This document shows positions 10,289 through 33,608 of a DNA stretch of 64,000 nt, in pieces. Position numbers and translations under genes: made by a program. Numbering within the stretch: the first letter of the stretch is position 1; each line of letters starts with the position of its first letter. The DNA is from an uncultured Gemmatimonadota bacterium (GTDB lineage: Bacteria; JAAXHH01). Where the stretch lies: the NCBI GenBank assembly GCA_951812955.1, contig OX638340.1, positions 1,568,001-1,632,000 on the forward strand, read 5' to 3'. The notes beneath the pieces were generated by a model. It made no database searches. It saw nothing but the letters and a program-made list of their open reading frames with translations, and had not been told where the DNA came from.

Positions 10289-10398
10289 GCGGATGATCGA
10301 GTGCTGCCGCACGGATGACAGAGCGCCGCCTTACGGATGATCGAGCGCTGCCGCACGGATGATTGAGTGCTGCAACACGGATGATCGGGCGCTACCGC
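10289..10398. repeat. Five tandem copies of a 22-bp direct repeat (consensus ACGGATGATCGAGYGCTGCCGC) in a divergent intergenic region
   Basis: Read directly from the sequence. Units start at 10289, 10311, 10333, 10355 and 10377. Confidence 0.9.
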
Positions 10399-10511: not shown

Positions 10512-11153
10512 ATGCCGGTGAGCAGCAAGGAATTCTTTGATCGCGTCGCCCCGGACTGGGACGAAATGCGCGAGGGGTATTATTCCGAGGACGTCAGGGT
10601 GGGCGCCCTGGCGGCCGCAGCGGTCGAGAAGGGCAAAATCGCCGCGGACATCGGCGCCGGTACGGGCTTTATTTCGCAGGGTCTGATCGAGGAAGGGCTT
10701 CAGATCATCGCGGTCGACCAGTCAGAGGTCATCCTGAATGAAATGAAGGAAAAGTTCGCCCGATGGTCATCGATCGAATATCGCGTAGGGAACGCCCAGG
10801 ATATACCGATTCCTGATGAAACGGTCGACTACGCCTTTGCCAATATGTGTCTCCACCACGTTGAATCACCGCCTGTCGCCATCCGGGAAATGACAAGAAT
10901 CCTGAAACCGGCAGGAAAACTGGTGATCACGGACGCGGACGAGCATGAATTCGAGTTTCTGCGCGAAGAGCACCATGACCGCTGGCTGGGTTTCAAACGA
11001 TCCGATATCAGATCATGGTATCTGGAAGCGGGACTGGGAGAGGTAAGTGTCGAAAGCATAGGCTCCCTATGCGAAGTGCAGTCTTTATGTTGTGAAGAAT
11101 TCGCCCGTATCGGGATATTCGTGGCCTCGGGAGAGAAACGCGCAGGGCGTTGA
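10512..11153 (+). CDS. Class I SAM-dependent methyltransferase (Methyltransf_11/UbiE-like)
   Basis: Motif I IADIGAGTGFIS, post-I acidic residue and motif II. GGAGG RBS 6 nt upstream of the ATG. Confidence 0.8.
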   Translation: MPVSSKEFFDRVAPDWDEMREGYYSEDVRVGALAAAAVEKGKIAADIGAGTGFISQGLIEEGLQIIAVDQSEVILNEMKEKFARWSSIEYRVGNAQDIPIPDETVDYAFANMCLHHVESPPVAIREMTRILKPAGKLVITDADEHEFEFLREEHHDRWLGFKRSDIRSWYLEAGLGEVSVESIGSLCEVQSLCCEEFARIGIFVASGEKRAGR

Positions 11154-11256
11154 AGGCCACGCTGCGCGCCAGGTAGTGCTTGCTTTTGTACGGGCTACCG
11201 GCAAACTGCAAGGAATATCCGTCCTGCCCATCGAACCATTGAACCGGAACGCCAGC

Positions 11257-13107
11257 ATGCATCCTGCCACCGAACATATACACCTCGCCATCTGTCCTGA
11301 TCACAAGGCGCTTTCGCGGACCGTTGCCAGGGAGATCGTCGGGTACGCCCAGGCGCGCGCCGAGGCGGGGAAGATGGCCGTACTGGGCCTTTGTACGGGA
11401 TCCACGCCCATCGACGTGTACGGGGAACTGATCGCGCTGCACCGCGGCGGCGTCAGTTTCGAGAACATCGTCACCTTCAACCTCGACGAATACTACCCCA
11501 TGTCGCGGCAGTCGACCCAGAGTTACCACCGCTACATGCAGGAGTATCTCTTCGACCATGTGAACATACCCGAAGACCAGGTCTACATCCCGTTGGGCGA
11601 CCTCGCGCCGGAGGAGATCGAGGACCACTGCGCATGGTACGAGGAACGTATCCGATCCGTGGGCGGCATCGGCATCCAGCTCCTGGGCATCGGGCGCACC
11701 GGCCATATCGGGTTCAACGAGCCCGGTTCCCTGCCGAACACGCGCACCCGGTTGATCCGCCTGGACGAGAGTACCCGCAAGGACGCCGCTTCCGATTTCT
11801 TCGGCGAGGACAACGTGCCCATCGAGGCGGTGACCATGGGCGTCGGCACCATCCTCGACGCGGAACGCATCATCCTCATGGCCACGGGCGAGCACAAGGC
11901 GCCCATCATCCGCAAGGCGGTGGAGGGCGAGGTCAGTCCGCTCGTGGCGGCCAGTTACCTTCAGAACCATCCGAACACGACGTTCTTCATCGATCCGCCC
12001 GCGTCCAGCGAACTGACCCGGGTAAAGCGGCCCTGGCTGAACAACCACGCGGTGGAATGGTCCGACCAGCTTTCGCAACGGGCCGTGCTCTGGCTTTGCG
12101 AGCAGGCGGAGAAGCCCGTATTGCACCTGCAGCGCCGGGACTACAACGCATACGACCTCTACTCCCTGGTGGATACCGTCCAGACAGTCGACGAACTCAA
12201 CCGGAAGACCTTCGACGCGGTCCGCGCCAAGATCTACGGCCGCGAGGACTTTTTCACCAACAAGCGCTGCGTCTGCTTCTCGCCTCATCCGGACGACGAC
12301 GTCATCTCCATGGGCGGCACGCTGTACCGGTTGTCCGGCGCCGGGAACGACATTACCATCGCTTACATGACCAGCGGGAACATCGCCGTATTCGACGAAG
12401 ACGTGAAGCGGCTTATCGATTTCATCGGCCTGACCTTCCGGGACCTGGGATGCGCCCACGCGAAGTTCGACGGAATCGTGGATACGGTGAGTTCCTTCAT
12501 CGAGACGAAACTGCCCGGACAGGTGGATATCCCCGAAGTCCAGATCATCAAGACCAACATCCGCCGGTCCGAAGCCATCGCGGCGGCGTCGACGCTGAAC
12601 ATCCCGCCGGAAAAGACCCGGTTCCTGGACCTGCCCTTCTACAAGACCGGGCAGGTGAAGAAGCATCCCATCGGCGATGAAGACGTGCGGATCGTCCTCG
12701 ATATCCTGAACGACGTCCGTCCGGAAGTTGTTTTCGTCGCCGGCGACCTCTCCGACCCGCACGGAACCCACCGCATATGCAAGGAAGTCATCGACCGGGC
12801 CCTCACTGTCTACGACAGGACGGACCCCGACGTGTGGCTTTACCGGGGCGCGTGGCAGGAGTGGGAAGTGGACGAGGCGGACGTGTTCATTCCCCTCTCG
12901 TACGAAGATCTCCAACGCAAGATCCAGGCCATATTCCGGCACGAATCCCAGAAGGATACCGCCATGTTCCCCGGTGCGTACGACGACAGGGAGTTCTGGG
13001 AGCGGGTGCAGGACCGGAATACCCACACGGCTCGGCGTCTAGACAAACTGGGTTTCCCCCAGTACTACGCCATGGAAGCCTTCGTCCTCGAGCGCGGCGG
13101 GGCGTGA
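11257..13107 (+). CDS. nagB: Bifunctional-type glucosamine-6-phosphate deaminase (NagB) domain fused to a C-terminal LmbE/PIG-L-family N-acetylglucosaminyl deacetylase-like domain
   Basis: N-terminal half carries NagB motifs (LGLCTGSTP, LGIGRTGHIGFNEPGS, VTMGVGTI). C-terminal half carries the PIG-L signature (CFSPHPDDDVISMGG ... DLSDPHGTHR). Start chosen at 11257 (MHPATEH) to avoid overlap with the upstream gene; the ORF is open from 11092. Confidence 0.8.
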   Translation: MHPATEHIHLAICPDHKALSRTVAREIVGYAQARAEAGKMAVLGLCTGSTPIDVYGELIALHRGGVSFENIVTFNLDEYYPMSRQSTQSYHRYMQEYLFDHVNIPEDQVYIPLGDLAPEEIEDHCAWYEERIRSVGGIGIQLLGIGRTGHIGFNEPGSLPNTRTRLIRLDESTRKDAASDFFGEDNVPIEAVTMGVGTILDAERIILMATGEHKAPIIRKAVEGEVSPLVAASYLQNHPNTTFFIDPPASSELTRVKRPWLNNHAVEWSDQLSQRAVLWLCEQAEKPVLHLQRRDYNAYDLYSLVDTVQTVDELNRKTFDAVRAKIYGREDFFTNKRCVCFSPHPDDDVISMGGTLYRLSGAGNDITIAYMTSGNIAVFDEDVKRLIDFIGLTFRDLGCAHAKFDGIVDTVSSFIETKLPGQVDIPEVQIIKTNIRRSEAIAAASTLNIPPEKTRFLDLPFYKTGQVKKHPIGDEDVRIVLDILNDVRPEVVFVAGDLSDPHGTHRICKEVIDRALTVYDRTDPDVWLYRGAWQEWEVDEADVFIPLSYEDLQRKIQAIFRHESQKDTAMFPGAYDDREFWERVQDRNTHTARRLDKLGFPQYYAMEAFVLERGGA

Positions 13108-13377
13108 CGTCCCCTCGGTGCGTTCGAGGCGTTTTTAACATGCGACGCGCCGGCCTCGGCCTCCCGACGAACCCCTCGAAAAGCAGTTGCTCTCCCGATC
13201 TTCAATCCATTATATTGGCCTGCTTGCTTGACGGCACCTGACCGGGGTCGCGACGGCGCTGAGATCCCGCACGGTGACATCCGCACGTCGAACGATCAGG
13301 ATGTCGAATCAAACTGGGTGTTGAACGATCCGGAAGTAGAACCATCGCCCGGGAACCGGGGACCATCGGAGGCACAA

Positions 13378-14325
13378 GTGCGCATAGCGGTATTCGGTAC
13401 AGGAGGCGTAGGCGGCTACTATGGAGGACGGCTTGCCGAGGCAGGAGAGGAAGTCGTATTCATCGCACGCGGCGAGCATCTGGAAGCCCTGCGGCAGAAC
13501 GGCATCCGCGTGGAAAGCACGAAGGGTGATTTCACGCTGCCCTCCATCGAAGCCATCGGGGATCCAAGGGAAGCCGGCGACGTGGACGTCGTCATGCTTT
13601 GCGTCAAGTGCTGGCAGGTGCCCGAAGCCCTCGACGGTCTCCGGCCCTTGCTCGGACCCGATACCTGTATCCTGCCCATGGAGAACGGGGTGGAGACGCC
13701 GGAGCAACTCGCCGCGGAGTTCGGCTGGCGGCACGTACTCGGCGGCGTCTGCGGGATCGTCTCGTTCATCGCCGAACCGGGTCTCATCCGGCATGTCGCC
13801 TACGAACCATTTGTCAATTTCGGGGAATGGGACAACCGCAGCAGCGAACGGGTCGACCGGTTGCGCCTGGCATTCGATCGCGCCAGGGGACTCATCGTCG
13901 ATACGCCGCCGGATATTCAGGCCGCCATGTGGCGCAAGTACATCCTCATCGCTTCGTGGAGCGGGATCGGCGGCGTGACCCGCGCGCCGATTGGCATCGT
14001 CCGCAGCCAGCCCGGCACCCGGCGGCTCCTCGAGACGGCCATGGAGGAGATCCACCGCGTGGCCACCGCCGTGGGCATCAGCCTGCCGGACGACATCGTA
14101 GCCCGGACCCTGGCCATTCTGGACAGCGTCGAATACGGCGGCACCGCCTCCATGCAGCGGGATATCATGGAAGGTAGATTCTCCGAGTTGGAAGCCCAGA
14201 CTGGCGCGCTGGTCCGCATGGGCAGGGAAGCGGGCGTGCCCACGCCGGTCAACGATTTCGTGTACCATTCGCTGCGGCCGATGGAACTTCGAACCCGAAA
14301 GCAGGTATCCTTCGAGACGCCCTGA
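13378..14325 (+). CDS. panE: 2-dehydropantoate 2-reductase (PanE/ApbA family ketopantoate reductase)
   Basis: N-terminal Rossmann VRIAVFGTGGVGGYYGGRLAEAG and the ApbA C-terminal domain. GTG start at 13378 is preceded by a GGAGG RBS at a 5-nt spacer; the ORF is open upstream to 13228. Confidence 0.75.
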   Translation: MRIAVFGTGGVGGYYGGRLAEAGEEVVFIARGEHLEALRQNGIRVESTKGDFTLPSIEAIGDPREAGDVDVVMLCVKCWQVPEALDGLRPLLGPDTCILPMENGVETPEQLAAEFGWRHVLGGVCGIVSFIAEPGLIRHVAYEPFVNFGEWDNRSSERVDRLRLAFDRARGLIVDTPPDIQAAMWRKYILIASWSGIGGVTRAPIGIVRSQPGTRRLLETAMEEIHRVATAVGISLPDDIVARTLAILDSVEYGGTASMQRDIMEGRFSELEAQTGALVRMGREAGVPTPVNDFVYHSLRPMELRTRKQVSFETP

Positions 14326-14386
14326 GTCGCGGGCAGTATACATTCAGGGTCCGGAGTCGCGGGCAGTATCGTTTCAGGCGCACTGT

Positions 14387-14612
14387 GGCGCCCGGGGCGC
14401 GACCCGAGACGATCCGAGACGACCCGAGACTCATCTGACGACCGAGGCGCGATGTGGCGCCCGGGGTACGACCCGAGACTCATCTGACGACCGAGGCGCA
14501 CTGTGGCGCCCGGGGTACGACCCGAGACTCATCTGACGACCGAGGCGCGATGTGGCGCCCGGGGCGCGACCCGAGACGACCCGAGATGATCCGAGACACA
14601 TCTGACGACCGA
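14387..14612. repeat. Four tandem copies of a 49-bp repeat (GGCGCRMTGTGGCGCCCGGGGYRCGACCCGAGACTCATCTGACGACCGA); the two outer copies carry an extra 10-20 bp of nested GACCCGAGAC sub-repeat
   Basis: Read directly. Units at 14387-14445, 14446-14494, 14495-14543 and 14544-14612. Preceded by two AGTCGCGGGCAGTAT copies at 14326-14369. Ends 24 bp before the corrinoid-locus start codon. Confidence 0.9.
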
Positions 14613-14635
14613 ACCGGCCTGCCGGAGCAACCCGC

Positions 14636-15634
14636 ATGAAGTCATTTCTTGAACGCATTGCCGACGATCGTCCCCTCCTTTACGACGGCGGTTTCGGCAC
14701 CGAGCTCTTCGTCCGGGGCATCGAACTGGCCAACAGCGCACTGGCCAACGAACTTTACCCCGACATTGTCAGAGACATCCATTTCGATTATATTGAAGCA
14801 GGCGCGGAAGTGGTGGGAACGAATACGTTCGTGGCGTCTTATCCCCATCTCGAAATGGCCGGGAAGGACGCCTCGGAATCCGAGCAGCTGATCCGGCTTT
14901 CCTTGGAACACGCCCGAGCCGCCATCGAGCGAAGCGGCAGGGAGGTGTACCTGGCCGGTTCCATCGGACCATTGCCGGGCGCCATCGAGGCCGACAGCGG
15001 CGACACGGAGTTCGGCATTGCCAACAGCATCGCCCGGGACGCCCACGAGCGCGTGGGAACGGTCCTGGCGGCAGGCGGGGTGGATTTCTTCTGTGTCGAG
15101 ACCATGTTCTCCGCCAACGAGGCGGCCCTGGCCATCGACGTATTGAGGCAGTTCGGCCTGCCCATCGCCGTGAACCAGACGTACAAATATACGAAGGACC
15201 GCGCCACGGGCGAGGTCGTTTACAAGACCGACTGGGGTCATTCGGCAGCCGATCTCCTGGAGATCCTGGCAGGCGGCGCGCAGTCTGGCGGTGGCGACCT
15301 GCTCGAGCATGTGCAGATCGTCGGCCTGAACTGCGGGGCGGAATCCCGGCGCGACGAGCACACGGGCATGCCTTACGCCATCAGCGGCATCGGCCAGTTG
15401 AAACGCGCCATGGAAGCCAGGGCAGAGGAACCGAAACGCATGATGGCCTACCCGAACGCCGGGAAGGCGCGTCTCGATGAGCAGCACCGGACCTATTACG
15501 ACAATACCCCGGAAGAGATGGCGGCCTCCGTACCGAATCTCCTCGAGGCCGGCGCTTTCTTCATCGGCGGCTGCTGCGGCACGGGCGTCGCCCACATCCG
15601 GGCCTTCCGCGAAGCGATGGACAGGATGGCATGA
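14636..15634 (+). CDS. Homocysteine S-methyltransferase-domain protein (MetH N-terminal / BHMT / MmuM type, Pfam S-methyl_trans), zinc-dependent thiol methyltransferase
   Basis: Signature motifs LYDGGFGTEL, VGTNTF, GLNCG and GGCCGTG (the Cys triad for Zn), in the order expected for the Hcy-binding barrel. Confidence 0.85.
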   Translation: MKSFLERIADDRPLLYDGGFGTELFVRGIELANSALANELYPDIVRDIHFDYIEAGAEVVGTNTFVASYPHLEMAGKDASESEQLIRLSLEHARAAIERSGREVYLAGSIGPLPGAIEADSGDTEFGIANSIARDAHERVGTVLAAGGVDFFCVETMFSANEAALAIDVLRQFGLPIAVNQTYKYTKDRATGEVVYKTDWGHSAADLLEILAGGAQSGGGDLLEHVQIVGLNCGAESRRDEHTGMPYAISGIGQLKRAMEARAEEPKRMMAYPNAGKARLDEQHRTYYDNTPEEMAASVPNLLEAGAFFIGGCCGTGVAHIRAFREAMDRMA

Positions 15635-15900
15635 CGAAGTACCAGGTTCTTTACTGGCGTGACATTCCGGCGCAGGTGCGCGTCTACGGAGGACGGCGTC
15701 CACTTTCACGCCAGATGCCCGACTGGTTCCAGCAGGAAATCGACCGGGTGGCCATGCGGGACGGACTCACTGGTACCGACGCCTACCTGGACGAGTGGCA
15801 CTGGTCTGAAAAACAGGAATGGACCGGCGAAGAGAAAGAACCCGATACGGTGGCGGAAGCCATTTTGAAGCGGCTCGAAGACGGGTTCGACAAGGGATAA
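15631..15900 (+). CDS. Small hypothetical protein (89 aa), translationally coupled to the upstream methyltransferase
   Basis: Its ATG overlaps the upstream stop in an ATGA junction at 15631-15634. Coding-like GC3. No family assigned with certainty. Confidence 0.55.
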   Translation: MTKYQVLYWRDIPAQVRVYGGRRPLSRQMPDWFQQEIDRVAMRDGLTGTDAYLDEWHWSEKQEWTGEEKEPDTVAEAILKRLEDGFDKG

Positions 15901-16034
15901 AACCGGACGCGACGGGCAAGGAGCAAATGCGGCGGGCAGTTATCAAGTCCGTCCGCAACCAGCCACAGCAATGGTCGGACGCGACGGGCAAGGAGCAGGA
16001 CCGGGCAGCATCGAAAACGTAAGAGGCGGCAGAT

Positions 16035-16673
16035 ATGGGTCAAACAGTCGACATAGGCAGGCGCATCGAACTGGTTCCGCTGGATCCCCATTTCGGGGAC
16101 ATATCCATCGGTCTTTACCGCCAGCACGACGATACCGGGCCGGTCTACCAGGTATACACCTACAGCCGGCGGGAAGGCGTCGAGGACCGTATCGCCTTTG
16201 TGGTAAAGGCCATGGGAGTACTGGGCGGGATGGAACAGGCCAGCGGCGGACGCCTTCGGTTCCCCTGCGGCCATGAACATCACATGGGGGTAAAGCGGGT
16301 GTTTCTCGAAGCCTGCAAGCTGGACCCTGCCGGCCCCGCGGAACCGCGGCCCCTGGAGATCCTCGACAAGAAATCGGGCCTTCAAATCCAGGTCCTGAGC
16401 GAGGGAGACGGCGTGTATCGCGTCACGGCCCATGGGGAAGGCAAGGACCGCGAGCGTCGCATTTCCTTCATCGCCGGTGGTCTGATGAAGCTGGCCGAGA
16501 TAGACGAGGTAAGCGGCACGCTGGACCAGGTGGTTTTTCCCTGCGCCCGTGTCCACGACGCGATGATCGGGCAATTGCTGGTCCGCGCGCCGAACGTCCG
16601 GGCCGTCCTGCGCGAGCAAGAGGCCGTGCTGAGTAGGGGCGTCCTGGCGGCGCCCAGCCAGCAGGATGGTTAG
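16035..16673 (+). CDS. Hypothetical protein (212 aa) inside the corrinoid methyltransferase locus; possibly DUF1638-like (unverified)
   Basis: AAGAGG RBS 9 nt upstream of the ATG and strong GC3 codon bias. Same strand as the locus. The opposing 667-aa ORF is judged a shadow. Confidence 0.5.
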   Translation: MGQTVDIGRRIELVPLDPHFGDISIGLYRQHDDTGPVYQVYTYSRREGVEDRIAFVVKAMGVLGGMEQASGGRLRFPCGHEHHMGVKRVFLEACKLDPAGPAEPRPLEILDKKSGLQIQVLSEGDGVYRVTAHGEGKDRERRISFIAGGLMKLAEIDEVSGTLDQVVFPCARVHDAMIGQLLVRAPNVRAVLREQEAVLSRGVLAAPSQQDG

Positions 16674-16751
16674 TAGTAACCATAGAGCCCGAATGATGAC
16701 TACGCGATCACGCGATCGTCGAAAGCTCGATCGATCGATAAGGAGGCAGTC

Positions 16752-17795
16752 ATGAGCGACGACCTCATCAGGGAGATGAAGGGCCGGGATCGGGTGCTGG
16801 CCGCCCTCAGGCGGGAGCCCGTGGATCGCACGCCCGTATGCAATCCGACGTCTGTCGCCACGGTGGAGCTGATGGACCTGGTCGACGCCCCCTTTCCGGA
16901 TGCCAACCGGGACCCGGAACTGATGGCCCGGCTGGCGGCCACCGGGTACACCGAGCTGGGTTTCGACAGCATCATGCCGGTCTTCACCATTATCCAGGAA
17001 TCCTCCGCGCTGGGCTGCAAGATCCAGTGGGAGCAAAAGGACAACTGGCCCACGGTTAAGATGCGCGAGCCTATCTGGGAAGACGTGGACGACATCAACG
17101 TCCCGTCCGATTTCCTTACGCACCAGGACACGAAATGCGTCCTCGACGCCATCAGCCTGCTCAAAAAGGAATACGGCGACGAGGTGGCCATCATCGGCAA
17201 GACCATGGGGCCGTGGTCGCTGGGTTACCACTGCTTCGGCGTGGAGCCCTTCCTGCTCATGTCCCTGGATGACCCCGGGAAGACCCACCTCGCCCTCGAC
17301 CGTATGAAGGAGGCCACAGTGGAGTTCGGCATCGCGCAGATCGAGGCCGGGGCGGACGCCCTGACCCTGCCGGACCACGCCACGGGCGACCTGGTGAGCG
17401 GCGAGTATTACCGGCGGTTCCTGAGGGACCTGCACATCGAACTCGTCGAACGGATCCCCATCCCGCTGATCATGCACATCTGCGGAAGGACCGTGGACCG
17501 CATGGGCTACATCGCGGAGACCGGCTTCGCAGCCTTTCACTACGATTCGAAAAACAAGCCCCAGGAATCCATGGAGGCCGTGGACGGCCAGATATCCCTC
17601 GTGGGCAACATCAACAACCCCGAGACGCTCTTCGCACGGGGTCCCGAAGAGGTGACCGGGGAAGTTTGCAGAAACCTGGAGCACGGGATTCACATGGTGG
17701 GACCGGAATGCGCGGTACCCCTCCAGGCGTCCATCGAGAACCTGAAGGCGATCCCCCAGGCCGTGAAAGACTGGCACCGCACACACGCGGCTTGA
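16752..17795 (+). CDS. MtaA/CmuA-type methyltransferase of the uroporphyrinogen decarboxylase (URO-D) family (methylcobamide-dependent methyltransferase)
   Basis: URO-D fold motifs (RTPVC, MPVFTII, IHICG). AAGGAGG RBS. Adjacent to the corrinoid protein, which is the usual context for MtaA-like rather than HemE enzymes. Confidence 0.85.
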   Translation: MSDDLIREMKGRDRVLAALRREPVDRTPVCNPTSVATVELMDLVDAPFPDANRDPELMARLAATGYTELGFDSIMPVFTIIQESSALGCKIQWEQKDNWPTVKMREPIWEDVDDINVPSDFLTHQDTKCVLDAISLLKKEYGDEVAIIGKTMGPWSLGYHCFGVEPFLLMSLDDPGKTHLALDRMKEATVEFGIAQIEAGADALTLPDHATGDLVSGEYYRRFLRDLHIELVERIPIPLIMHICGRTVDRMGYIAETGFAAFHYDSKNKPQESMEAVDGQISLVGNINNPETLFARGPEEVTGEVCRNLEHGIHMVGPECAVPLQASIENLKAIPQAVKDWHRTHAA

Positions 17796-17936
17796 GGCGC
17801 AAAGGAGTCAGCTGTACGCGAGGCGCAAAGGCCACGCATTGAAAACGGGATCAGCCGCAGCGGCCGGTGCGGTCCGACTCACCGCGCGGCAGGCGGCAAA
17901 ATCGGCATGAACCAGGGAGGACCGGGAAGAAGCGCA

Positions 17937-18700
17937 TGGCAGAACTCAACGATATAGCCAACGACTTTCTTAAAGACGAAATAGAAGAGTTCATCGAAAG
18001 ACCCAACGAGCGGACGCGGATCATCGATGCCTTCGCCCGGGCGACGCCGGCCATGCAGGAGATCTCCGCGGCGCTCATCGACGGGGACAACGGCACGGTC
18101 GACACGCTTACCCGGGCGGCGCTGGACGATGGTATCGAGGCCCTGGAGGTGATGGACGACGGCCTGATCAACGGCATGAGCATCGTGGGCATCAAGTTCC
18201 GGGAGAACTTCATCTTCGTCCCGGAGGTCCTGGCCTGTGCCCGCGCCATGAAGGCCGGCATGGCCCACATCGAACCCATTCTCTCCGCCTCGGGCATCCA
18301 GCCGGTCGGCAAGGTCATCATGGGCACGGTCAAGGGCGACCTTCACGACATCGGTAAAAACCTGTGCATCATGATGCTGCGCGGCGCCGGGTTCGTGGTC
18401 CATGACCTCGGTGTAGACACCTCCGAGGACGAGTTCATGGACGCCGTGGAGGAACACGAAGCCCCCCTGGTGGGCATGTCGGCCCTGCTCACCACGACCA
18501 TGCCCAACATGGGCAAGACCATCGACGCTTTCATCGATAACGACATGCGTGAAGACGTAAAGATCATGGTGGGCGGCGCGTCGGTCACCCAGGAGTTCGC
18601 CGATGACATGGGCGCCGACGGCACCGCCGAAGACGCGGTTGGATGCGTGGAACTGGCCAACCGCCTCCTCGTGGAACTCAAGCAGGAACAGGAAGCCTGA
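17937..18700 (+). CDS. Corrinoid (cobalamin-binding) protein, MtaC/MtbC/MetH-B12-domain type
   Basis: N-terminal B12-binding_2 cap helix bundle followed by a Rossmann B12-binding domain with the DxHxxG motif (GDLHDIGKN) and MVGG. An alternative GTG at 17867 is less likely. Confidence 0.85.
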
Positions 18701-18845
18701 GTAAGTTAATCGCACCTCACGGCCTGGCGGACCGGCGGTCCGATCCCGTTTCGGCGCGGGTGGTTAAGTGGCACGGCCGGGAAAGCAGCCGGGCTGGCAG
18801 ATTGGCGCGGCTGGCCGCAGCAGGATCCCTTCCCTACATTAATCC

Positions 18846-20873
18846 ATGAAAAAGATCGACAAGGCGGCGTACCAGAAGCGCCTGGACCGCATCACGGCCA
18901 TCTTCAAGGACATGATGGCTCACGCGACAGAACAGGCCACCTACCGCTGCCCATACAAAAACCGTTTTGACGAATGTACCGCCCGGTTCGGGTGCCGTAA
19001 CCAGCGCAAACCGAGGGAAGCCGGCGGCCTGCTCATGTGCGGAGGGGACGACAAACTCGACTACCGCGGCGCATGGGAGACGGAGGAAGCCCCGCACGAA
19101 AGACCGGAGCAGGTACATACGACGGATCAAAAACCGGACGCACGCCCGTCTGCGGTGCGAGAAGATGTTGTGGCTACGAGCATGGATGAAGCAGATCGTA
19201 CAGGACGGGCCGCGCCGAATGTGACCATGGATACGTCCTCAGATCCACCCGGCGGCACGGTAACCGACGGCACGACGACCCGGCCCGCGGTCATCGGCAA
19301 ATCCATCTTCGATTACGCCGACGACCTCGCCGTCCAGGTGCCCACCTCCTGTTTCCGCAACGGCATATGTCACGAGTGCATCGTGGAAATCAAACAAGGG
19401 ATGGAAGGGCTCGTGCCCAGGTCCAAGCCGGAATCCTTCCTGCGCGAGAACTACCGGCTCGCCTGCCAGGCGCGCGTGATCGACCCCAATGTGGACATCG
19501 CCTTCGCTCCGCTCCGCCGAACGCCCAAGATCCTGACCGTTACCGAAGAAAAGGAAACGCCGCTCGATCCCCTGGTCACCCGGCGGGGCGATGACATCTT
19601 CTACGACGGCGAGCAGGTCGACCTGTTCCGCGGACACGTGTACGGGCTCGCGATCGACCTGGGCACGACCACGGTGGTCATGGATTTCGTGGACCTGGAG
19701 ACCGGCCGGAGCGTCCACGTCTGTTCCTTCGAGAACCCCCAGCGCTTCGGCGGCAGCGACGTGATGCACCGCATCTCATACGACGGCGGGTTCGAGGACG
19801 AACTCTGGAACGCCATCATCAACGCCGTCAACCACGAGATCATGGACTGGTGCGAGCGGACGGAAACCGCGCGGCAGGAGATCTACGAGATCGTCGTGGC
19901 GGGCAACTCCACCATGCGCGACCTCTTCTTCCGCCTCGACGTACAGAGCATCGGCCAGAAACCCTACAAGTCGCAGATCGAAAACGAATACCTCGCGGGC
20001 GAACGAGATACCACGGCGCTGACCATCGGCACCCGGCGGCTCGGCCTGCGGGCCAATCCAAAGGCCCGTGTCTACGGCCTGCCCATTATCGCCAGCCACG
20101 TGGGCGGCGACGTGACGGCCGACCTGGCCACCGTCGACCTGGCTGCGCGGCCGGGCGTATCCATGCTGGTGGACGTGGGCACCAATACCGAGGTGGTCGT
20201 GGCAGGCAACGGACGCATGGTCACGGCTTCGTGCCCCGCCGGTCCCGCCTTCGAGGGCGGCGGAATCAAGTACGGCATGCCAGGCTACGAAGGCGCCATT
20301 GAAACATTGAAGTGGGAAGACGGGCGGTTCGACTGGCGCACCATCGGAGACTCCGCGCCCCAGGGCATCTGCGGCTCCGGGCTGATCGATCTCCTCGCCG
20401 AACTGCGCCGCCACGGCATGATGAGCCCGAAGGGGGTGTTCCCCGACCGGAAACAATTCGAGGTGCCCGTCGTAGCCGAATCCGGCATCACCCTGTCCCG
20501 GCAGGACGCCAGCAACCTGGCCCAGGCCAAGGCAGCCAACTACTGCGGCCAATACATCGTCCTCCGCGCCTTCGGCGTCGCGCCGGGCGACGTGGACCGG
20601 CTCTTCCTTGCGGGCGGTTTCGCCAACTACGTGGACGTGCGAAACGCCATCGACATCGGGTTCCTGGCCCCCGTGCCCGAAGACCGCATCTTCAAGGTCG
20701 GCAACGCCGCCGTCCAGGGTGCCCGGGAGATCCTCCTCTCCCGTTCGCGCCGCAAGGAAATGGAAACGCAGGTCAAGGACATCGAGCACATCGAGCTCGA
20801 GACTACCCCCGACTTTTTCGAGATCTTCGTCGAAGCCTGCCAGTTCAAGCCTATGCCGGGCGTGCTGGTGTAG
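18846..20873 (+). CDS. RACo-type reductive activator of corrinoid proteins ([2Fe-2S] ferredoxin domain plus ASKHA ATPase) with an unusual ~135-aa N-terminal extension
   Basis: Plant-type ferredoxin Cys pattern (CFRNGICHECIV ... LACQARV), then an ASKHA/DUF4445-like region (GLAIDLGTTTVV, VDVGTNTE, ICGSGLIDL). Start is uncertain; in-frame ATGs at about 19182 and 19227 are alternatives. Confidence 0.8.
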   Translation: MKKIDKAAYQKRLDRITAIFKDMMAHATEQATYRCPYKNRFDECTARFGCRNQRKPREAGGLLMCGGDDKLDYRGAWETEEAPHERPEQVHTTDQKPDARPSAVREDVVATSMDEADRTGRAAPNVTMDTSSDPPGGTVTDGTTTRPAVIGKSIFDYADDLAVQVPTSCFRNGICHECIVEIKQGMEGLVPRSKPESFLRENYRLACQARVIDPNVDIAFAPLRRTPKILTVTEEKETPLDPLVTRRGDDIFYDGEQVDLFRGHVYGLAIDLGTTTVVMDFVDLETGRSVHVCSFENPQRFGGSDVMHRISYDGGFEDELWNAIINAVNHEIMDWCERTETARQEIYEIVVAGNSTMRDLFFRLDVQSIGQKPYKSQIENEYLAGERDTTALTIGTRRLGLRANPKARVYGLPIIASHVGGDVTADLATVDLAARPGVSMLVDVGTNTEVVVAGNGRMVTASCPAGPAFEGGGIKYGMPGYEGAIETLKWEDGRFDWRTIGDSAPQGICGSGLIDLLAELRRHGMMSPKGVFPDRKQFEVPVVAESGITLSRQDASNLAQAKAANYCGQYIVLRAFGVAPGDVDRLFLAGGFANYVDVRNAIDIGFLAPVPEDRIFKVGNAAVQGAREILLSRSRRKEMETQVKDIEHIELETTPDFFEIFVEACQFKPMPGVLV

Positions 20874-21122
20874 GGTGGATTGTCGACCTCGGGTATTCTA
20901 TACTAGATCTGGGATGGGAATTCAACTATTGCTATAGATCGGGTTAAAGTACTCACTGATGCATGTTCAGCCTGAGGCCTCCACAAAGAAATCATCGGTT
21001 CGAAAGGTCTGCATTTTGAGTTCCTGAATGTATTGTGATGTCTTTTATGTTGCGTGTTTTCAATATGTACAGTATTCGTTAGAAATATAGATAGTGGTGC
21101 CAACATTTTCATCGAGATTGCT

Positions 21123-21347
21123 ATGCGTCGATTCAAGATCATTGTTGAAGAACATCAGGATGGTTACGTAGCGTATCCATTAGGGCTCTCCGGAATAGTT
21201 GTTGGCCAGGGTGATACGTACGACAACGCGGTAGCGGATGTCAAATCTGCTATAGAATTCCATATCGAGAGCTTTGGAACAACGGTATTTGAGGAAGAAT
21301 CTGACGTTCTTCGCGCTTTCGTCACTGATGCGGAGTTCGTAGACTGA
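21123..21347 (+). CDS. hicB: HicB-like antitoxin (UPF0150 family)
   Basis: MRRFKIIVEEHQDGYVAYPLGLSGIVVGQGDTYDNAVADVKSAIEFHIE matches the HicB/UPF0150 pattern. Lies in a low-GC region. Confidence 0.6.
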   Translation: MRRFKIIVEEHQDGYVAYPLGLSGIVVGQGDTYDNAVADVKSAIEFHIESFGTTVFEEESDVLRAFVTDAEFVD

Positions 21348-21541
21348 TGGCAGGTTTTCCTGTCGACGCACCTCGTCAACGAGTTAAACGTACTCTGAGC
21401 AAACTGGGATTCAAGGTCGTCCGTGAAGGCAATCATATAAACAGTTCTTGTTTCCGCTCTATGCGGAATTACTGTAGTCCATGGCTTTGTTGCCAGCAAC
21501 TCGCTGAGATTCCCCCCTATCGGATATTCCAAAAACACTGA
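21347..21541 (+). CDS. hicA: HicA-like toxin candidate (YcfA family N-terminus), possibly degenerate in its C-terminal half
   Basis: RVKRTLSKLGFKVVREGNHI resembles the HicA dsRBD-like start, but downstream the sequence loses the conserved HP...VP...G motifs. Overlaps the hicB stop in a TGATG junction. Confidence 0.35.
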   Translation: MAGFPVDAPRQRVKRTLSKLGFKVVREGNHINSSCFRSMRNYCSPWLCCQQLAEIPPYRIFQKH

Positions 21542-21550
21542 ACCCGCAAA

Positions 21551-22495
21551 ATGTTCCACCTCCGTCCCGCCCGTCCCTCGTCCGATGAATCGGGCATCGC
21601 TTCCGTCGTCAACGCCTTCGAACAGAATCCGGTTTCAGTAGATACCGTACGCGAGTGGCTGACCCATGGTGCGCCGGGCAGAATCAGCTATCGCCAGGTG
21701 GCTGTGACCCGTGACGACGTCGTTGCAGGTTACGCGGTGTCGGTGCATGAAACCTGGAATCCGGAAGGGCAGTTCTATGCCTGGGTGGGCGTGGCGCCTG
21801 CGTGGCGGGGACGAGGTATCGGCTCAGCGCTGTACATAGACTTGATGCAATTTCTGGAGCAACACGACGCCGGTACGATTACGAGCGAGGTCCGGGACGA
21901 CTGCGCCATCTCGCTGGCATTCGCCGAGCGACACGGATTCGAAAAAGACCGGCATCTGTTTCAGTCGAGCCTGGACCTCGAAGCCTTCGACGAATCACCC
22001 TATCTGGGCACGCTTGGCGGAGTCGCCGAGGCGGGTATACGTGTGCGCTCAATTGCGGATTTCGGCGACACGCCGGACGCTCGCAGGAAACTCTACGAAG
22101 TCAACGCGATAACCGACCAGGACGTGCCTGGCTGGATCGGACCCGGGCTTTCCTTTGAGGAATTCAACGAGTGGGTGTACGTTTCGGAATGGTACCGGCC
22201 GGATGGCCAGTTGCTTGCGGCCGATGGGGATCGCTGGGTCGGGATCTGTGCGGTGCGGCTATACCCCGATGCGTGCCTGGCCTTCAACGTGCACACCGGG
22301 GTGATCCGGGCGTATCGAAAGCGTCATGTCGCGGTGGCGCTGAAACTGGCCGCGATTCGCTATGCCAGGAATCAAGGCGCGCGATCACTCAGTACGCACA
22401 ACGATTCGATGAACGGCCCCATGCTGGCGCTCAACCGGAAATTAGGTTATGTCCCGGAGCCGGGACGGTATACGCTGCGTGGGACGATGACCTGA
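21551..22495 (+). CDS. GNAT family N-acetyltransferase (tandem GNAT-like domains)
   Basis: Acetyl-CoA binding motif AWRGRGIGSALY and a second GNAT-like half. Confidence 0.75.
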   Translation: MFHLRPARPSSDESGIASVVNAFEQNPVSVDTVREWLTHGAPGRISYRQVAVTRDDVVAGYAVSVHETWNPEGQFYAWVGVAPAWRGRGIGSALYIDLMQFLEQHDAGTITSEVRDDCAISLAFAERHGFEKDRHLFQSSLDLEAFDESPYLGTLGGVAEAGIRVRSIADFGDTPDARRKLYEVNAITDQDVPGWIGPGLSFEEFNEWVYVSEWYRPDGQLLAADGDRWVGICAVRLYPDACLAFNVHTGVIRAYRKRHVAVALKLAAIRYARNQGARSLSTHNDSMNGPMLALNRKLGYVPEPGRYTLRGTMT

Positions 22496-31268: not shown

Positions 31269-32731
31269 TGGTGATTCTGGACCTCGCGCTCAAGTCGCTC
31301 CGCAACCGCGCCTTCAGCACCTCGCTCACGGTAGGCTCCATCGCCCTCAGCGTCGCCCTCATGATCGGCGTCGAGAACGTGCGCATGGGCATGCGCGAGA
31401 GTTTCTCAAACACCATCAGCCAGACCGATCTGATCGTCGGTACCAAGGGCGGCACGATTCAGTTGCTATTGTATTCGGTCTTCGGCTTGGGATCACCCAC
31501 GGAGAATGTTTCGTGGGAGGCCTACAGGCAGTGGGCGGAGCATCCCGCGGTCGCTTGGACCATCCCATACAGTCTTGGGGACAGTCACAGAGGATTCCGG
31601 GTCATCGGCACGAACCAGGACTTCCATCGTCACTACCGCTACCGCGGAGGTCAGGAAATCGCGCTGGCGGAGGGAAGGGCGAACGTGGATCTATTCGATG
31701 TAACCCTGGGCGCGGACGTGGCAGCCGAGTTGAATTACGCGTTGGGCGACGAGATTGCGGTGACGCACGGGCTCGGTGAGGTGGGTTTCCTGAACCACGA
31801 CCACATGCCCTTCACGGTCGTGGGCGTCCTCGCCAAGACATTCACCCCCGTTGACCGAGCGATCTACGTGTCCCTCGAGGGCATGGAGGCCATCCACTGG
31901 GAGGGCGGTGCCCCTCCGGCGTCGGACGACGAACACGTCCACGATGAGACGGATGCGGCCACCGCGGACGATGGACACGTCCACGATGAGGCGGATGCGG
32001 CCACCGCGGACGATGGACACGACGAAGAGGCGGATGCGGCCACCGCGGACGATGGGCACGACGAAGAGACGGATACGGCCACTGCGGACGACGAACACGT
32101 CCACGATGAGGCGGATGAGGCCACCGCGGACGATGGGCACGACGAGGCGGTGGATTTTTCGATCGAGGATGTCGAAGTCAGGCAGGTGACGTCGTTCTTC
32201 GTGGGGATGACCAGCCGCCGGGACGTGCTACAACTGCAGCGCCAGATCAACGATTTCGAGAACGAGCCCATGATGGCCGTGATCCCCGGAGTCGCCCTGA
32301 ACGAGATGTGGCAGGGCCTGGGTTACGCCGAGACCGGCCTCCGGCTGGTGACCATCTTCGTCGTGTTGGTAGGGTTACTGGGCATGCTGGTCTCACTCTA
32401 CACGTCGCTTAACGAGCGCCGACGGGAAATGGCGATCCTGCGCGCCGTCGGGGCGGGACCCAACCGAATCGTCTCACTGCTGGTGCTCGAGTCGGTGTGC
32501 CTGTCCGCGGCGGGAGCCATCGGCGGACTCGCCCTGGTTTACATGTTGCTCTCAGCCGGACAGTCGTTTGTCGAGGCGCAAGTCGGGCTCTACATTCCGA
32601 TCCGGCCCCCCGGCTCAATCGAATTCCTCTACCTGGCCGCCGTGGTGACGGCCGGATTCGTGATGGGCTTCGTGCCCGCACTCAAGGCCTACCGCACGGC
32701 ACTCCATGACGGACTGTCGGTACGGGTGTAA
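31268..32731 (+). CDS. FtsX-like ABC transporter permease (MacB-type periplasmic domain) with a His/Asp-rich tandem-repeat insertion
   Basis: N-terminal TM plus MacB_PCD-like region, then C-terminal FtsX 3-TM bundle (MAILRAVGAGP ...). ATG overlaps the upstream stop. The repeat insertion lies at 31925-32155. Confidence 0.8.
   Translation: MVILDLALKSLRNRAFSTSLTVGSIALSVALMIGVENVRMGMRESFSNTISQTDLIVGTKGGTIQLLLYSVFGLGSPTENVSWEAYRQWAEHPAVAWTIPYSLGDSHRGFRVIGTNQDFHRHYRYRGGQEIALAEGRANVDLFDVTLGADVAAELNYALGDEIAVTHGLGEVGFLNHDHMPFTVVGVLAKTFTPVDRAIYVSLEGMEAIHWEGGAPPASDDEHVHDETDAATADDGHVHDEADAATADDGHDEEADAATADDGHDEETDTATADDEHVHDEADEATADDGHDEAVDFSIEDVEVRQVTSFFVGMTSRRDVLQLQRQINDFENEPMMAVIPGVALNEMWQGLGYAETGLRLVTIFVVLVGLLGMLVSLYTSLNERRREMAILRAVGAGPNRIVSLLVLESVCLSAAGAIGGLALVYMLLSAGQSFVEAQVGLYIPIRPPGSIEFLYLAAVVTAGFVMGFVPALKAYRTALHDGLSVRV
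31925..32155 (+). repeat. In-frame tandem repeat (about 5.5 units of 39-42 bp) encoding His/Asp-rich repeats HVHDEADAATADDG in the periplasmic domain of the FtsX permease
   Basis: Read directly. Encoded peptide is DDEHVHDETDAATADDGHVHDEADAATADDGHDEEADAATADDGHDEETDTATADDEHVHDEADEATADDGHDEAVD. Confidence 0.85.
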
Positions 32732-33325: not shown

Positions 33326-33417
33326 CCGGAGAGGTGCGAGAGTGGCTGAATCGGATCGACTGCTAATCGATTGTGGGTCAAAAAACCTACCGAGGGTTCG
33401 AATCCCTCCCTCTCCGT
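33326..33417 (+). tRNA. tRNA-Ser (anticodon GCT), type II
   Basis: Manually folded. Acceptor GGAGAGG/CCTCTCC, anticodon stem ATCGA/TCGAT with loop CTGCTAA, T-arm GAGGG-TTCGAAT-CCCTC, discriminator G. Confidence 0.85.
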
Positions 33418-33489
33418 CAGAAGTATCAAAGCCGGTCCTGGTCGGCCGAATATCAGAAGTATCAAAGCCGCTCCTGGTCGGCCGAATAG
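33418..33489. repeat. Two tandem 36-bp direct repeats (TCAGAAGTATCAAAGCCGNTCCTGGTCGGCCGAATA) beginning at the nucleotide after the tRNA-Ser(GCT) 3' end
   Basis: Read directly. Copies at 33418-33453 and 33454-33489. Confidence 0.85.
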
Positions 33490-33536
33490 CGGCATTCACC
33501 GGGCTCCGGCCCGCATCGGAAGCCCCATCCAGGAAT

Positions 33537-33608
33537 ACCATCGGGAGCCCTGTACTTTGAATTACCATCGGGAGCCCTATTCTTGAGATTCCATCAGGAG
33601 CGCCATTC
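33537..33608. repeat. About 2.5 tandem copies of a 28-bp repeat (TACCATCGGGAGCCCT core) upstream of a small membrane-protein gene
   Basis: Read directly. Cores at 33537-33552 and 33565-33580, with a degenerate third copy at 33591-33606. Confidence 0.7.

What the first reader, a model, noticed from the sequence alone, without database searches (positions are those of the whole stretch)
15631..16673. Two uncharacterised ORFs (89 aa and 212 aa) embedded between the two methyltransferase genes
The 89-aa ORF overlaps the Hcy-methyltransferase stop in an ATGA junction, which implies translational coupling. The 212-aa ORF has a good RBS and strong codon bias.

Neither shows recognisable catalytic motifs. 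Their conserved placement inside a cobalamin methyltransferase cassette suggests accessory roles, for example substrate delivery, cobalamin handling, or a DUF1638-like function (unverified).
Basis: inference. Interest (0 to 1): 0.5.

Follow-up and report, generated by a model that had tools for sequence, protein, structure and literature searches.

The report
Two conserved helpers of B12 methyltransferases
Both small genes are real: each is the constant partner of a different vitamin-B12-dependent methyltransferase gene, and the larger one belongs to a widespread protein family that nobody has described, with a likely metal-binding site and no known relative.

Summary
Both ORFs are real, conserved genes, but they are two separate modules, not one pair.

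**89-aa ORF (15631-15900).**
- It is a clear member of Pfam PF13769, "Virulence_fact", a family with no tested function.
- In every testable related locus (54 of 54) it sits directly after a methyl-acceptor methyltransferase: PF02574 (42 loci) or pterin-binding PF00809 (12 loci). The two genes often overlap.

**212-aa ORF (16035-16673).**
- It has no Pfam, NCBIfam or PDB sequence match, and no significant fold neighbour. It nevertheless has more than 1000 homologues.
- It is an internal tandem duplication. Each half carries an FPCGxxH motif, and the four Cys/His residues are kept or lost together.
- It has an invariant, predicted-disordered C-terminal tail (RGVLAAPSQQ).
- It lies immediately upstream of one highly conserved MtaA-like zinc methyltransferase clade in 147 of 147 testable loci, from five phyla and from marine, sponge, lake and soil samples. 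This holds even where the corrinoid protein and activase genes are not nearby.

**Most likely roles (inferred, not shown).**
- The 212-aa protein is an obligate metal-binding partner subunit of the MtaA-like enzyme.
- The 89-aa protein is an adaptor for the acceptor-side methyltransferase.

Neither is related to DUF1638. The methyl donor or acceptor of the system remains unknown.

The parts
13228..14325 (+). Ketopantoate-reductase-like (ApbA/PanE family) 2-oxoacid reductase gene. It forms the upstream edge of the cassette in this lineage.
   Evidence: PF02558 9e-40 and PF08546 1.7e-28. It is syntenic upstream of the PF02574 gene in about 25 related loci at 73-97% identity.
14636..15634 (+). 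Homocysteine S-methyltransferase-domain protein (332 aa). It is the probable methyl-acceptor methyltransferase, of the type found as the Hcy module of split methionine synthases.
   Evidence: PF02574 5.8e-50. Sub-threshold matches to NCBIfam BHMT, MmuM and MetH models. The zinc-ligand cysteines LNCG and GGCCG are visible in the translation.
15631..15900 (+). 89-aa PF13769 ('Virulence_fact') protein. Its start overlaps the stop of the PF02574 gene (ATGA).
15904..15997 (.). Spacer between the two ORFs holding a perfect 22-nt direct repeat (15904-15925 and 15976-15997). The repeat is part of a variable-copy unit of about 72 nt.
   Evidence: 0 matches expected by chance. One search shows three copies in L002 and L091, a shortened form in L001, and none in L003. 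It is lineage-specific and not conserved with the genes.
16035..16673 (+). 212-aa protein of an undescribed family. It is a tandem duplication of a module of about 95 aa, with two FPCGxxH motifs (C78/H82 and C170/H174) and an invariant C-terminal helix and tail. It is the constant upstream partner of the MtaA-like gene.
16752..17795 (+). MtaA/CmuA-type (URO-D superfamily) zinc methyltransferase, 347 aa.
   Evidence: PF01208 6.1e-67. NCBIfam PRK06252 258 bits and TIGR01463 243 bits, both above their subfamily cut-offs. Match to M. mazei MtaA 4ay7 at 1.8e-52, with the HxC and C zinc ligands aligned. 76-99% identical across phyla.
17867..18700 (+). Corrinoid protein with a B12-binding cap and a Rossmann domain. 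The true start may be the ATG at about 17936.
   Evidence: PF02607 4.3e-20 and PF02310 5.7e-27. The DxHxxG motif (DLHDIG) is visible in the translation. Orthologues are about 254 aa.
18846..20873 (+). RACo-type ATP-dependent reductive activase of corrinoid proteins. It is fused at its N-terminus (about 18846-19090) to a conserved four-cysteine mini-domain.
   Evidence: Fer2, Raco_middle and RACo_C_ter. The N-terminal 80 aa are 65-78% identical to separate 74-110 aa ORFs that lie between the corrinoid-protein and RACo genes in L049, L067, L084 and L172.

Best explanation
The window holds a corrinoid-dependent methyl-transfer cassette built from two conserved gene couples plus shared machinery.

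**The 212-aa protein.** It is the obligate partner of the MtaA-like zinc methyltransferase. It is a pseudo-dimeric alpha/beta protein made by internal duplication. The two CxxxH motifs most likely form a Cys2His2 metal site, probably binding zinc. The invariant C-terminal helix and disordered tail most likely dock onto the very highly conserved MtaA-like enzyme. Together the two proteins would form the substrate-specific methyltransferase that exchanges a methyl group between an unidentified small molecule, most likely a thiol or thioether, and the corrinoid protein.

**The 89-aa protein.** This PF13769 protein is a small adaptor of the other methyltransferase, which passes the methyl group between the corrinoid protein and homocysteine (here) or tetrahydrofolate (in other lineages). 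It is translationally coupled to that enzyme.

**Shown:** gene reality, family membership, the internal duplication, motif conservation, and the strict pairwise synteny.

**Inferred:** physical complex formation, metal binding, and the direction and substrate of methyl transfer.
For: **212-aa gene and the MtaA-like gene**
- The 212-aa gene lies directly upstream of the MtaA-like gene in 79/79 genome loci seeded with the 212-aa protein.
- In the reciprocal test, it lies upstream in 68/68 metagenome loci seeded with the MtaA-like protein that had enough upstream sequence. None lacked it.
- The median gap is 30 nt over 148 pairs.
- The pair persists in about 20 loci where no corrinoid-protein or RACo gene follows.
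- The pair holds down to 37% identity (P0284).
- The MtaA-like protein is complete against M. mazei MtaA and keeps its zinc ligands. The partner therefore adds something rather than replacing a missing domain.

**Features of the 212-aa protein**
- Internal duplication: hhalign probability 95%.
- C78, H82, C170 and H174 are at least 90% conserved family-wide.
- The only two full-length exceptions (P0261, P0382) have lost all four residues at once.
- 16 of the 54 invariant columns lie in the last 32 residues. Residues 202-212 are predicted disordered.

**89-aa gene**
- PF13769 hit.
- The gene directly upstream is PF02574 in 42 loci and PF00809 in 12, out of 54 testable loci. Estimated gaps are -10 to 174 nt.
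- Independent look-ups agree.

**Cassette logic**
- The combination of methyltransferase, corrinoid protein, ATP-dependent activase and second methyltransferase matches split methionine synthase and MtgBCDE-type systems (PMC5764234, PMC12478193).
Against: - No experiment or co-fold supports a physical complex. Synteny alone cannot tell a subunit from an enzyme of the same pathway.
Each repeat also has a conserved Asp (D17, D111), so two separate sites are possible.
- The most distant homologues (27-31% identity: P0357, P0322) are not next to a URO-D gene. The fold therefore has other uses.
- Characterised MtaA, MtsA, MtpA and CmuA enzymes are not known to need such a partner (my knowledge, plus PMC10418091 and bioRxiv 10.1101/548461).
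- One PF13769 gene had no methyltransferase gene upstream.
- No natural fusion of PF13769 to a methyltransferase was seen among the top 120 profile hits.
Confidence: 0.45

Rival explanations
1. The 212-aa protein is a free-standing enzyme of the same pathway, for example a metal-dependent hydrolase or lyase. It would make or consume the small-molecule substrate or product of the MtaA-like methyltransferase, rather than being a subunit of it.
For: - Its conserved Asp/Cys/His sets (D17/C78/H82 and D111/C170/H174) resemble catalytic metal sites or triads.
- Distant homologues occur without a URO-D gene, next to a gamma-glutamyl transpeptidase gene.
- 2-oxoacid reductase genes of three different families recur at the cassette edge, and a GntR/FCD regulator gene is often adjacent. 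This suggests a carboxylic-acid substrate that may need further processing.
Against: - The fold matches are below significance, and no histidine-triad motif is present.
- The invariant disordered tail and the absolute adjacency to one enzyme clade are more typical of a binding partner.
- The adjacency holds even where all other cassette genes differ.
Confidence: 0.2
2. The 212-aa protein is a maturation factor or metallochaperone. It would deliver zinc to the MtaA-like enzyme, or protect its zinc-thiolate site in oxygen-exposed cells.
For: - It has a Cys2His2-type motif set.
- Its partner is a zinc enzyme.
- The hosts are mostly aerobic marine, sponge and soil bacteria rather than methanogens.
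Against: - Known zinc chaperones are COG0523 GTPases (my knowledge). No nucleotide-binding motif is present here.
- The PF02574 enzyme in the same cassette is also a zinc enzyme, but the 212-aa gene does not track it.
Confidence: 0.1
3. The 212-aa protein acts in corrinoid reduction or handling, a DUF1638-like role. It would serve as an electron carrier or as a helper of the RACo activase.
For: - Two Cys plus two His could in principle hold a Rieske-type [2Fe-2S] cluster.
- DUF1638 proteins are similar in size and are needed alongside RamA-like activases (PMC5764234).
Against: - No PF07796 match for 35 family members, even at E <= 5.
- The gene stays with the MtaA-like gene in about 20 loci that have no adjacent corrinoid-protein or RACo gene.
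- It is never found next to RACo alone.
- RACo already carries its own [2Fe-2S] domain, plus a separate four-cysteine module.
Confidence: 0.08
4. The 212-aa protein is itself a methyl acceptor or sensor. A zinc-activated cysteine would be methylated by the MtaA-like enzyme, as happens in the Ada N-terminal domain, to signal or regulate.
For: - Conserved metal-type cysteines.
- A regulator gene is often adjacent.
Against: - It has no DNA-binding domain.
- A stoichiometric acceptor fits poorly with a catabolic or assimilatory cassette that includes a recycling activase.
- This is pure analogy with no direct support.
Confidence: 0.04

Closest known systems
Split methionine synthase and MtgBCDE system of Phaeobacter inhibens and Ruegeria pomeroyi (PMC5764234, PMC12478193)
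   Same: - Separate Hcy-binding (PF02574), corrinoid-protein and RamA/RACo-type activase proteins.
- A shared corrinoid protein that can be methylated by a substrate-specific methyltransferase and demethylated to homocysteine or tetrahydrofolate.
- Accessory proteins of unknown role are part of the system.
   Different: - The substrate-specific enzyme here is an MtaA-like URO-D protein plus the 212-aa partner, not an MttB-family MtgB.
- The accessory proteins are PF13769 and the 212-aa family, not DUF1638.
- The hosts are Gemmatimonadota, Latescibacterota, Poribacteria and others, not roseobacters.
MtaA, MtsA and MtpA methylcobamide:thiol methyltransferases of Methanosarcina (PDB 4ay7; bioRxiv 10.1101/548461)
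   Same: - The downstream gene matches M. mazei MtaA 4ay7 at E 1.8e-52 over its whole length, with the zinc ligands conserved.
- It is encoded next to a corrinoid protein and an activase.
   Different: - The hosts are bacteria not known to make coenzyme M.
- The physiological thiol or thioether is unknown.
- Those archaeal enzymes have no reported 212-aa-type partner.
Type 1 mlp gene clusters (Kountz and Balskus, PMC10418091)
   Same: [quoted passage not shown]
   Different: - Those clusters hold two or three MtaA-like paralogues, lack a tetrahydrofolate or homocysteine methyltransferase, and occur only in obligate anaerobes.
- This cassette has a single MtaA-like gene, the 212-aa partner, and a PF02574 or PF00809 gene followed by PF13769.
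DUF1638 (PF07796) accessory proteins of corrinoid methyltransferase systems
   Same: Small proteins of unknown mechanism, genetically tied to corrinoid methyl transfer. They are needed for split MetH function (PMC5764234) and are present as MecG in mec cassettes (bioRxiv 10.1101/2021.08.30.458270).
   Different: - No sequence relationship was detected.
- DUF1638 co-occurs with the activase, whereas the 212-aa gene co-occurs with the MtaA-like methyltransferase.
HIT and GalT-like alpha+beta proteins (PDB 2oik, 4qvu)
   Same: These are the best, though weak, structural matches to one half of the 212-aa model. GalT-like proteins are also pseudo-dimers of two such halves, and some bind zinc through Cys and His.
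   Different: - No HxHxH motif is present.
- Foldseek finds nothing significant.

Membership tests
Pfam PF13769 (Virulence_fact), tested for the 89-aa ORF | Score above the Pfam gathering threshold across the domain | tested here: met
   59.1 bits against a cut-off of 25, E 5.5e-16, profile positions 2-74 of 81. All listed homologues carry a precomputed PF13769 assignment.
Pfam PF13769 (Virulence_fact), tested for the 89-aa ORF | A role in virulence, as the family name implies | not testable with these tools
   No paper on the family was found. Every genomic context seen here is one-carbon or corrinoid metabolism in free-living or sponge-associated bacteria.
DUF1638 (PF07796), tested for the 212-aa ORF | Sequence match to the family model | tested here: not met
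   No hit for the window protein at E <= 0.1. None for 35 diverse family members at E <= 5.
DUF1638 (PF07796), tested for the 212-aa ORF | Co-occurrence with a RamA/RACo-type activase | tested here: not met
   The 212-aa gene always pairs with the MtaA-like gene. It does so in about 20 loci with no adjacent RACo gene.
HIT / GalT-like superfamily, tested for the 212-aa ORF | Significant fold similarity and a histidine-triad (HxHxHxx) or GalT active-site motif | tested here: not met
   [not shown]
Multi-component corrinoid-dependent methyltransferase system (MT / corrinoid protein / activase / MT), tested for the cassette | Corrinoid protein with a B12-binding cap, a Rossmann domain and a DxHxxG motif | tested here: met
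   PF02607 and PF02310. DLHDIG is present in the translation.
Multi-component corrinoid-dependent methyltransferase system (MT / corrinoid protein / activase / MT), tested for the cassette | ATP-dependent reductive activase (RACo/RamA type) | tested here: met
   Fer2, Raco_middle and RACo_C_ter.
Multi-component corrinoid-dependent methyltransferase system (MT / corrinoid protein / activase / MT), tested for the cassette | Two methyltransferases, one on the donor side and one on the acceptor side | tested here: inconclusive
   Two methyltransferase genes are present (PF01208 and PF02574), but both are of the zinc/thiol type. Which one donates, and what the substrate is, cannot be read from sequence.
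MtaA/CmuA methyltransferase subfamily (TIGR01463 / PRK06252), tested for the downstream partner gene | Score above the subfamily cut-off and conserved HxC...C zinc ligands | tested here: met
   258 bits against 244, and 243 against 235. The zinc ligands align with 4ay7. The equivalog models MtaA_Meth and MtbA are not reached (234 against 400; 196 against 600), so the enzyme is not an orthologue of the methanogen enzymes.

The most novel reading that the evidence does not exclude
The 212-aa protein and the MtaA-like enzyme together form a previously unrecognised two-subunit methyltransferase, widespread in aerobic marine, sponge-associated and soil bacteria. It would take the methyl group from an abundant methylated sulfur compound and pass it through a corrinoid protein directly to homocysteine or tetrahydrofolate. 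One candidate donor is methylmercaptopropionate from DMSP, for which (to my knowledge) no bacterial demethylase to mercaptopropionate has been identified. The 212-aa subunit would supply a new metal site needed to bind or activate that substrate.
Probability: 0.1. Interest if true: 0.85.

Novelty: new variant of a known kind. Interest (0 to 1): 0.55.

Why it matters
Corrinoid-dependent methyl-transfer systems are usually described as methyltransferase, corrinoid protein, activase and second methyltransferase.

This cassette adds two conserved small proteins, each tied to one of the two methyltransferases. It also carries a four-cysteine module on the activase.

- **The 212-aa family.** It has no curated model, no solved relative and no literature. 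Yet it accompanies one of the most conserved MtaA-like enzymes outside methanogens in every locus examined, across at least five phyla, including dominant sponge symbionts. Working out its role would probably reveal the substrate of this enzyme, and so a route of methyl-group (possibly organosulfur) turnover in oxic marine and soil habitats.
- **The 89-aa family.** The PF13769 result gives a misnamed "virulence factor" family a concrete, testable context: it is an accessory of the homocysteine- or folate-side modules of split methionine-synthase-type systems.

Tried and rejected
**Searches on the 212-aa protein that found nothing**
- Pfam and NCBIfam scans of the protein and of 34 diverse homologues.
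- PDB sequence profile search, best E 0.15.
- AlphaFold-database fold libraries, which were not available.
- tblastn against plasmids.
- Cluster-member names, looking for a cultured host or an annotation. All were "hypothetical" and all from MAGs.

**Searches on the 89-aa protein that found nothing**
- A profile search for natural fusions of PF13769 to a methyltransferase. None were among the top 120 hits.

**Other negative results**
- Rfam scan of 13000-22000 for a cobalamin riboswitch or other RNA: nothing at E <= 1.
- Promoter and terminator scan: no more sites than in shuffled sequence.
- Literature searches for PF13769, for the cassette in sponge symbionts, and for MMPA demethylation found no paper on either protein.

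**Ideas considered and rejected**
- Type 1 mlp clusters. Rejected because they have multiple MtaA-like paralogues, occur only in anaerobes, and lack an acceptor methyltransferase.
- The cdm and mec haloalkane systems. Neither paper describes a partner resembling the 212-aa protein. MecG is described as sharing domain organisation with the activation proteins of Price et al. 2018, which I take to mean DUF1638.
- The spacer repeat as a regulatory element. Rejected because its copy number varies among relatives at 96-97% identity, and it is absent in a relative at 89% identity.
- The antisense 667-aa ORF as the expressed frame. Rejected on codon-position substitution counts.
- Genes downstream of the cassette in other loci are variable, so they give no substrate clue.
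Full report
**1.

The ORFs 15631-15900 (89 aa) and 16035-16673 (212 aa) are on the + strand as described.
- The ATG of the 89-aa ORF overlaps the TGA of the upstream PF02574 gene, as ATGA.
- The 212-aa ORF has an AAGAGG ribosome-binding site 8 nt upstream of its ATG.
- The flanking genes are a homocysteine S-methyltransferase-domain protein (PF02574) and an MtaA/CmuA-type URO-D methyltransferase (PF01208). These are followed by a corrinoid protein (PF02607 + PF02310) and a RACo-type activase.
- NCBIfam places the URO-D protein in the MtaA/CmuA subfamily, but not in the methanogen equivalogs.
- Substitutions against orthologues concentrate at third codon positions in the + frame. The counts are 201/239/966 for the 212-aa ORF and 82/111/296 for the 89-aa ORF. 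Both are therefore protein-coding under purifying selection.
- The 667-aa antisense ORF is a high-GC artefact.

**2. The 89-aa protein.**

- It is a clear member of Pfam PF13769, "Virulence_fact" (59.1 bits against a cut-off of 25).
- A profile search finds at least 4105 homologues. The top 120 are all stand-alone proteins of 82-120 aa, named "virulence factor" or "hypothetical".
- I found no paper on the family.

Its genomic behaviour is simple. In all 54 loci where it could be tested, the gene directly upstream on the same strand is PF02574 (42 loci) or pterin-binding PF00809 (12 loci). Estimated gaps are -10 to 174 nt. These 54 loci were collected with the 212-aa, MtaA-like or PF13769 proteins as seeds, and some are near-duplicates, so they are not a fully independent sample.

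Look-ups with more distant members agree:
- Pterin_bind ... S-methyl_trans-PF13769-mnmG.
- URO-D-corrinoid protein-small ORF-RACo-(MTHFR)-Pterin_bind-PF13769.
- One member had no methyltransferase gene upstream.

PF13769 therefore tracks the homocysteine- or folate-side methyltransferase of split methionine-synthase-type systems. It does not track the MtaA-like enzyme.

**3. The 212-aa protein.**

*No known relative.*
- No Pfam or NCBIfam hit.
- None for 34 further diverse family members, even at E <= 5.
- No PDB sequence relative (best E 0.15).

*A large but unnamed family.*
- 1079 homologues in the word-indexed search.
- 229 clusters at 50% identity in the exhaustive search.
- All are about 210 aa. 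All are unnamed or "hypothetical", and those with a source name come from MAGs.

*Sequence features.*
- Alignments A1 and A2 show a tandem duplication of a module of about 95 aa. hhalign of the N-terminal half against the C-terminal half gives probability 95%, E 3e-8.
- Each half has the pattern strand-strand-strand-helix-short strand-helix.
- Each half carries an FPCGxxH motif at the start of its last helix. C78, H82, C170 and H174 are at least 90% conserved across the family.
- Among 210 sequences of 180-290 aa, about 190 keep all four residues. Most exceptions are fragments or frameshift chimeras. The only two full-length exceptions (P0261, P0382) have lost all four together.
- This all-or-none pattern fits a single shared site, most simply a Cys2His2 metal site at the pseudo-dyad. 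I could not measure distances because model coordinates are not returned.
- The equivalent Asp residues D17 and D111 are also conserved, so two Asp/Cys/His sites cannot be excluded.
- The last 32 residues hold 16 of the 54 invariant columns of A1. These include the tail RGVLAAPSQQ, which AF2 leaves disordered (pLDDT below 50 for 202-212). That is typical of a segment that folds onto a partner.

*Structure.*
- The AF2 model is confident (pLDDT 88, pTM 0.85).
- Foldseek finds nothing at E <= 1e-3.
- The AlphaFold-database libraries were unavailable.

**4. Synteny of the 212-aa gene.**

- Eighty genome loci seeded with the 212-aa alignment come from Gemmatimonadota, Latescibacterota, Poribacteria, Opitutales and Acidobacteriota MAGs. 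Many of these are from sponges.
- In 79 of them the MtaA-like gene follows directly. The eightieth is cut off by the contig end.
- In the reciprocal test, 80 metagenome loci were seeded with the MtaA-like protein. They include contigs from marine metagenomes and from a range of other samples.
- Among these, 68 of the 68 loci with at least 700 nt of upstream sequence carry the 212-aa gene within 400 nt. None lacks it.
- The median intergenic gap is 30 nt over 148 pairs.
- The MtaA-like protein is 76-99% identical across these phyla. The 212-aa protein is 43-97%, the corrinoid protein 69-98% and RACo 51-96%.
- About 20 loci carry only the 212-aa/MtaA-like pair, with no adjacent corrinoid-protein or RACo gene.
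- A homologue at 37% identity sits in the same cassette. Homologues at 27-31% identity do not.
- The common layout elsewhere is: GntR/FCD regulator (divergent), then 212-aa, MtaA-like, corrinoid protein, RACo, and then Pterin_bind or S-methyl_trans followed by PF13769.
- In the window's lineage, a KPR-like reductase, S-methyl_trans and PF13769 sit upstream instead.
- The two ORFs of the finding are therefore members of two different gene couples that happen to abut here.

**5. How it most likely works.**

The MtaA-like protein aligns end to end with M. mazei MtaA (4ay7, E 1.8e-52) and keeps the HxC...C zinc ligands. It is therefore a complete zinc-dependent methyltransferase of the methylcobamide:thiol type.

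The cassette as a whole matches split methionine synthase and MtgBCDE-type systems. In those, one corrinoid protein is served by a substrate-specific methyltransferase, by a folate-side or homocysteine-side methyltransferase, and by a RamA/RACo activase (PMC5764234, PMC12478193).

My best reading (confidence about 0.45):
- The 212-aa protein is an obligate, metal-binding partner subunit of the MtaA-like enzyme. It would contribute substrate binding or activation, or docking.
- PF13769 is an adaptor for the acceptor-side methyltransferase.

The rivals are:
- an independent pathway enzyme (0.2);
- a zinc chaperone or protector (0.1);
- a corrinoid-reduction helper of the DUF1638 kind (0.08), disfavoured by the lack of homology and by the pairing pattern;
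- a methyl-accepting sensor (0.04).

The substrate is unknown. Several points bear on it:
- Both methyltransferases are zinc/thiol types.
- Transfer from a simple thioether to tetrahydrofolate would be energetically unfavourable (my knowledge of the methionine synthase equilibrium). The folate-linked variants may therefore run from methyl-tetrahydrofolate to a thiol, or may use a better methyl donor such as a methyl halide, as CmuA does.
- A GntR/FCD regulator gene, and 2-oxoacid reductase genes of three unrelated families, recur at the cassette edge. These are ApbA/KPR here, Ldh_2 in L022 and 2-Hacid_dh in L084 and L088. They hint at a carboxylic-acid substrate or product.

**6. Comparison with known systems, and novelty.**

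- Type 1 mlp clusters are not the same thing. They have several MtaA-like paralogues, occur only in anaerobes, and have no acceptor methyltransferase (PMC10418091).
- The cdm and mec haloalkane systems have no such partner.
- The cassette is a known kind of system with two or three undescribed conserved additions. I rate it a new variant of a known kind.
- The 212-aa family itself is uncharacterised and uncurated.

**7. Limits.**

Everything about complex formation, metal binding, and the direction and substrate of transfer is inference from sequence, predicted structure and gene order. The loci sampled were chosen by similarity to the window genes. The counts therefore show constancy within this clade, not across all URO-D methyltransferases.

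Noticed in passing
window 18846-19090 (N-terminus of the RACo ORF 18846-20873): The first 80 aa or so of the RACo ORF form a conserved four-cysteine module (RCPYKNRFDECTARFGCRNQ...LMCGGDDKLDY). It has no Pfam match and is joined to the Fer2 domain by a low-complexity linker. In L049, L067, L084 and L172 the same module is a separate 74-110 aa ORF between the corrinoid-protein and RACo genes, at 65-78% identity. It is a third uncharacterised component of the cassette.
   Followed up: partly
window 15904-15997: There is a perfect 22-nt direct repeat in the spacer between the two ORFs. It belongs to a unit of about 72 nt whose copy number varies among close relatives. L002 and L091 have three copies, L001 has a shortened form, and L003 has none.
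   Followed up: yes
window 14321-14612; also 10290-10398, 31923-32145, 33417-33619: Several regions that fall between the predicted genes of this window hold short tandem arrays. Upstream of the PF02574 gene there are 3.2 copies of a 49-nt unit at 94% match. The other arrays have 22/44-nt, 39-42/81-nt and 26-36-nt units. No Rfam family matches the one upstream of the cassette.
   Followed up: partly
window 16752-17795 and loci L001-L170: The MtaA-like protein is 76-99% identical across Gemmatimonadota, Latescibacterota, Poribacteria, Opitutales and Acidobacteriota and across varied metagenomes. That is clearly more conserved than its cassette neighbours. It suggests unusually strong constraint, recent horizontal spread of the cassette, or both.
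   Followed up: partly
L081-L083, L154, L157, L171, and the contig of P0212 (no DNA held): PF13769 genes are repeatedly followed by mnmG/gidA, the methylene-tetrahydrofolate-dependent tRNA modification enzyme. In one case this holds even without a methyltransferase gene upstream. This may be lineage-specific synteny or a second folate-related link.
   Followed up: no
window 13228-14325; L022 13287-14354; L084 6308-7300; L088 6746-7426: 2-oxoacid/2-hydroxyacid reductase genes of three unrelated families sit at the edge of the cassette in different lineages: ApbA/KPR, Ldh_2 and 2-Hacid_dh. A divergent GntR/FCD regulator gene is also common. This is a possible clue to the substrate class.
   Followed up: partly
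L087 6001-6636; L086 712-1392: The most distant homologues of the 212-aa family (27-31% identity) are not next to a URO-D gene. One lies between a gamma-glutamyl transpeptidase gene and an NAD_binding_1 oxidoreductase gene. The other lies before a DUF433 gene.
   Followed up: no
window 11092-13107: A 671-aa ORF combines a glucosamine-6-phosphate isomerase/6-phosphogluconolactonase-like domain with a PIG-L (GlcNAc-PI de-N-acetylase family) domain.
   Followed up: no
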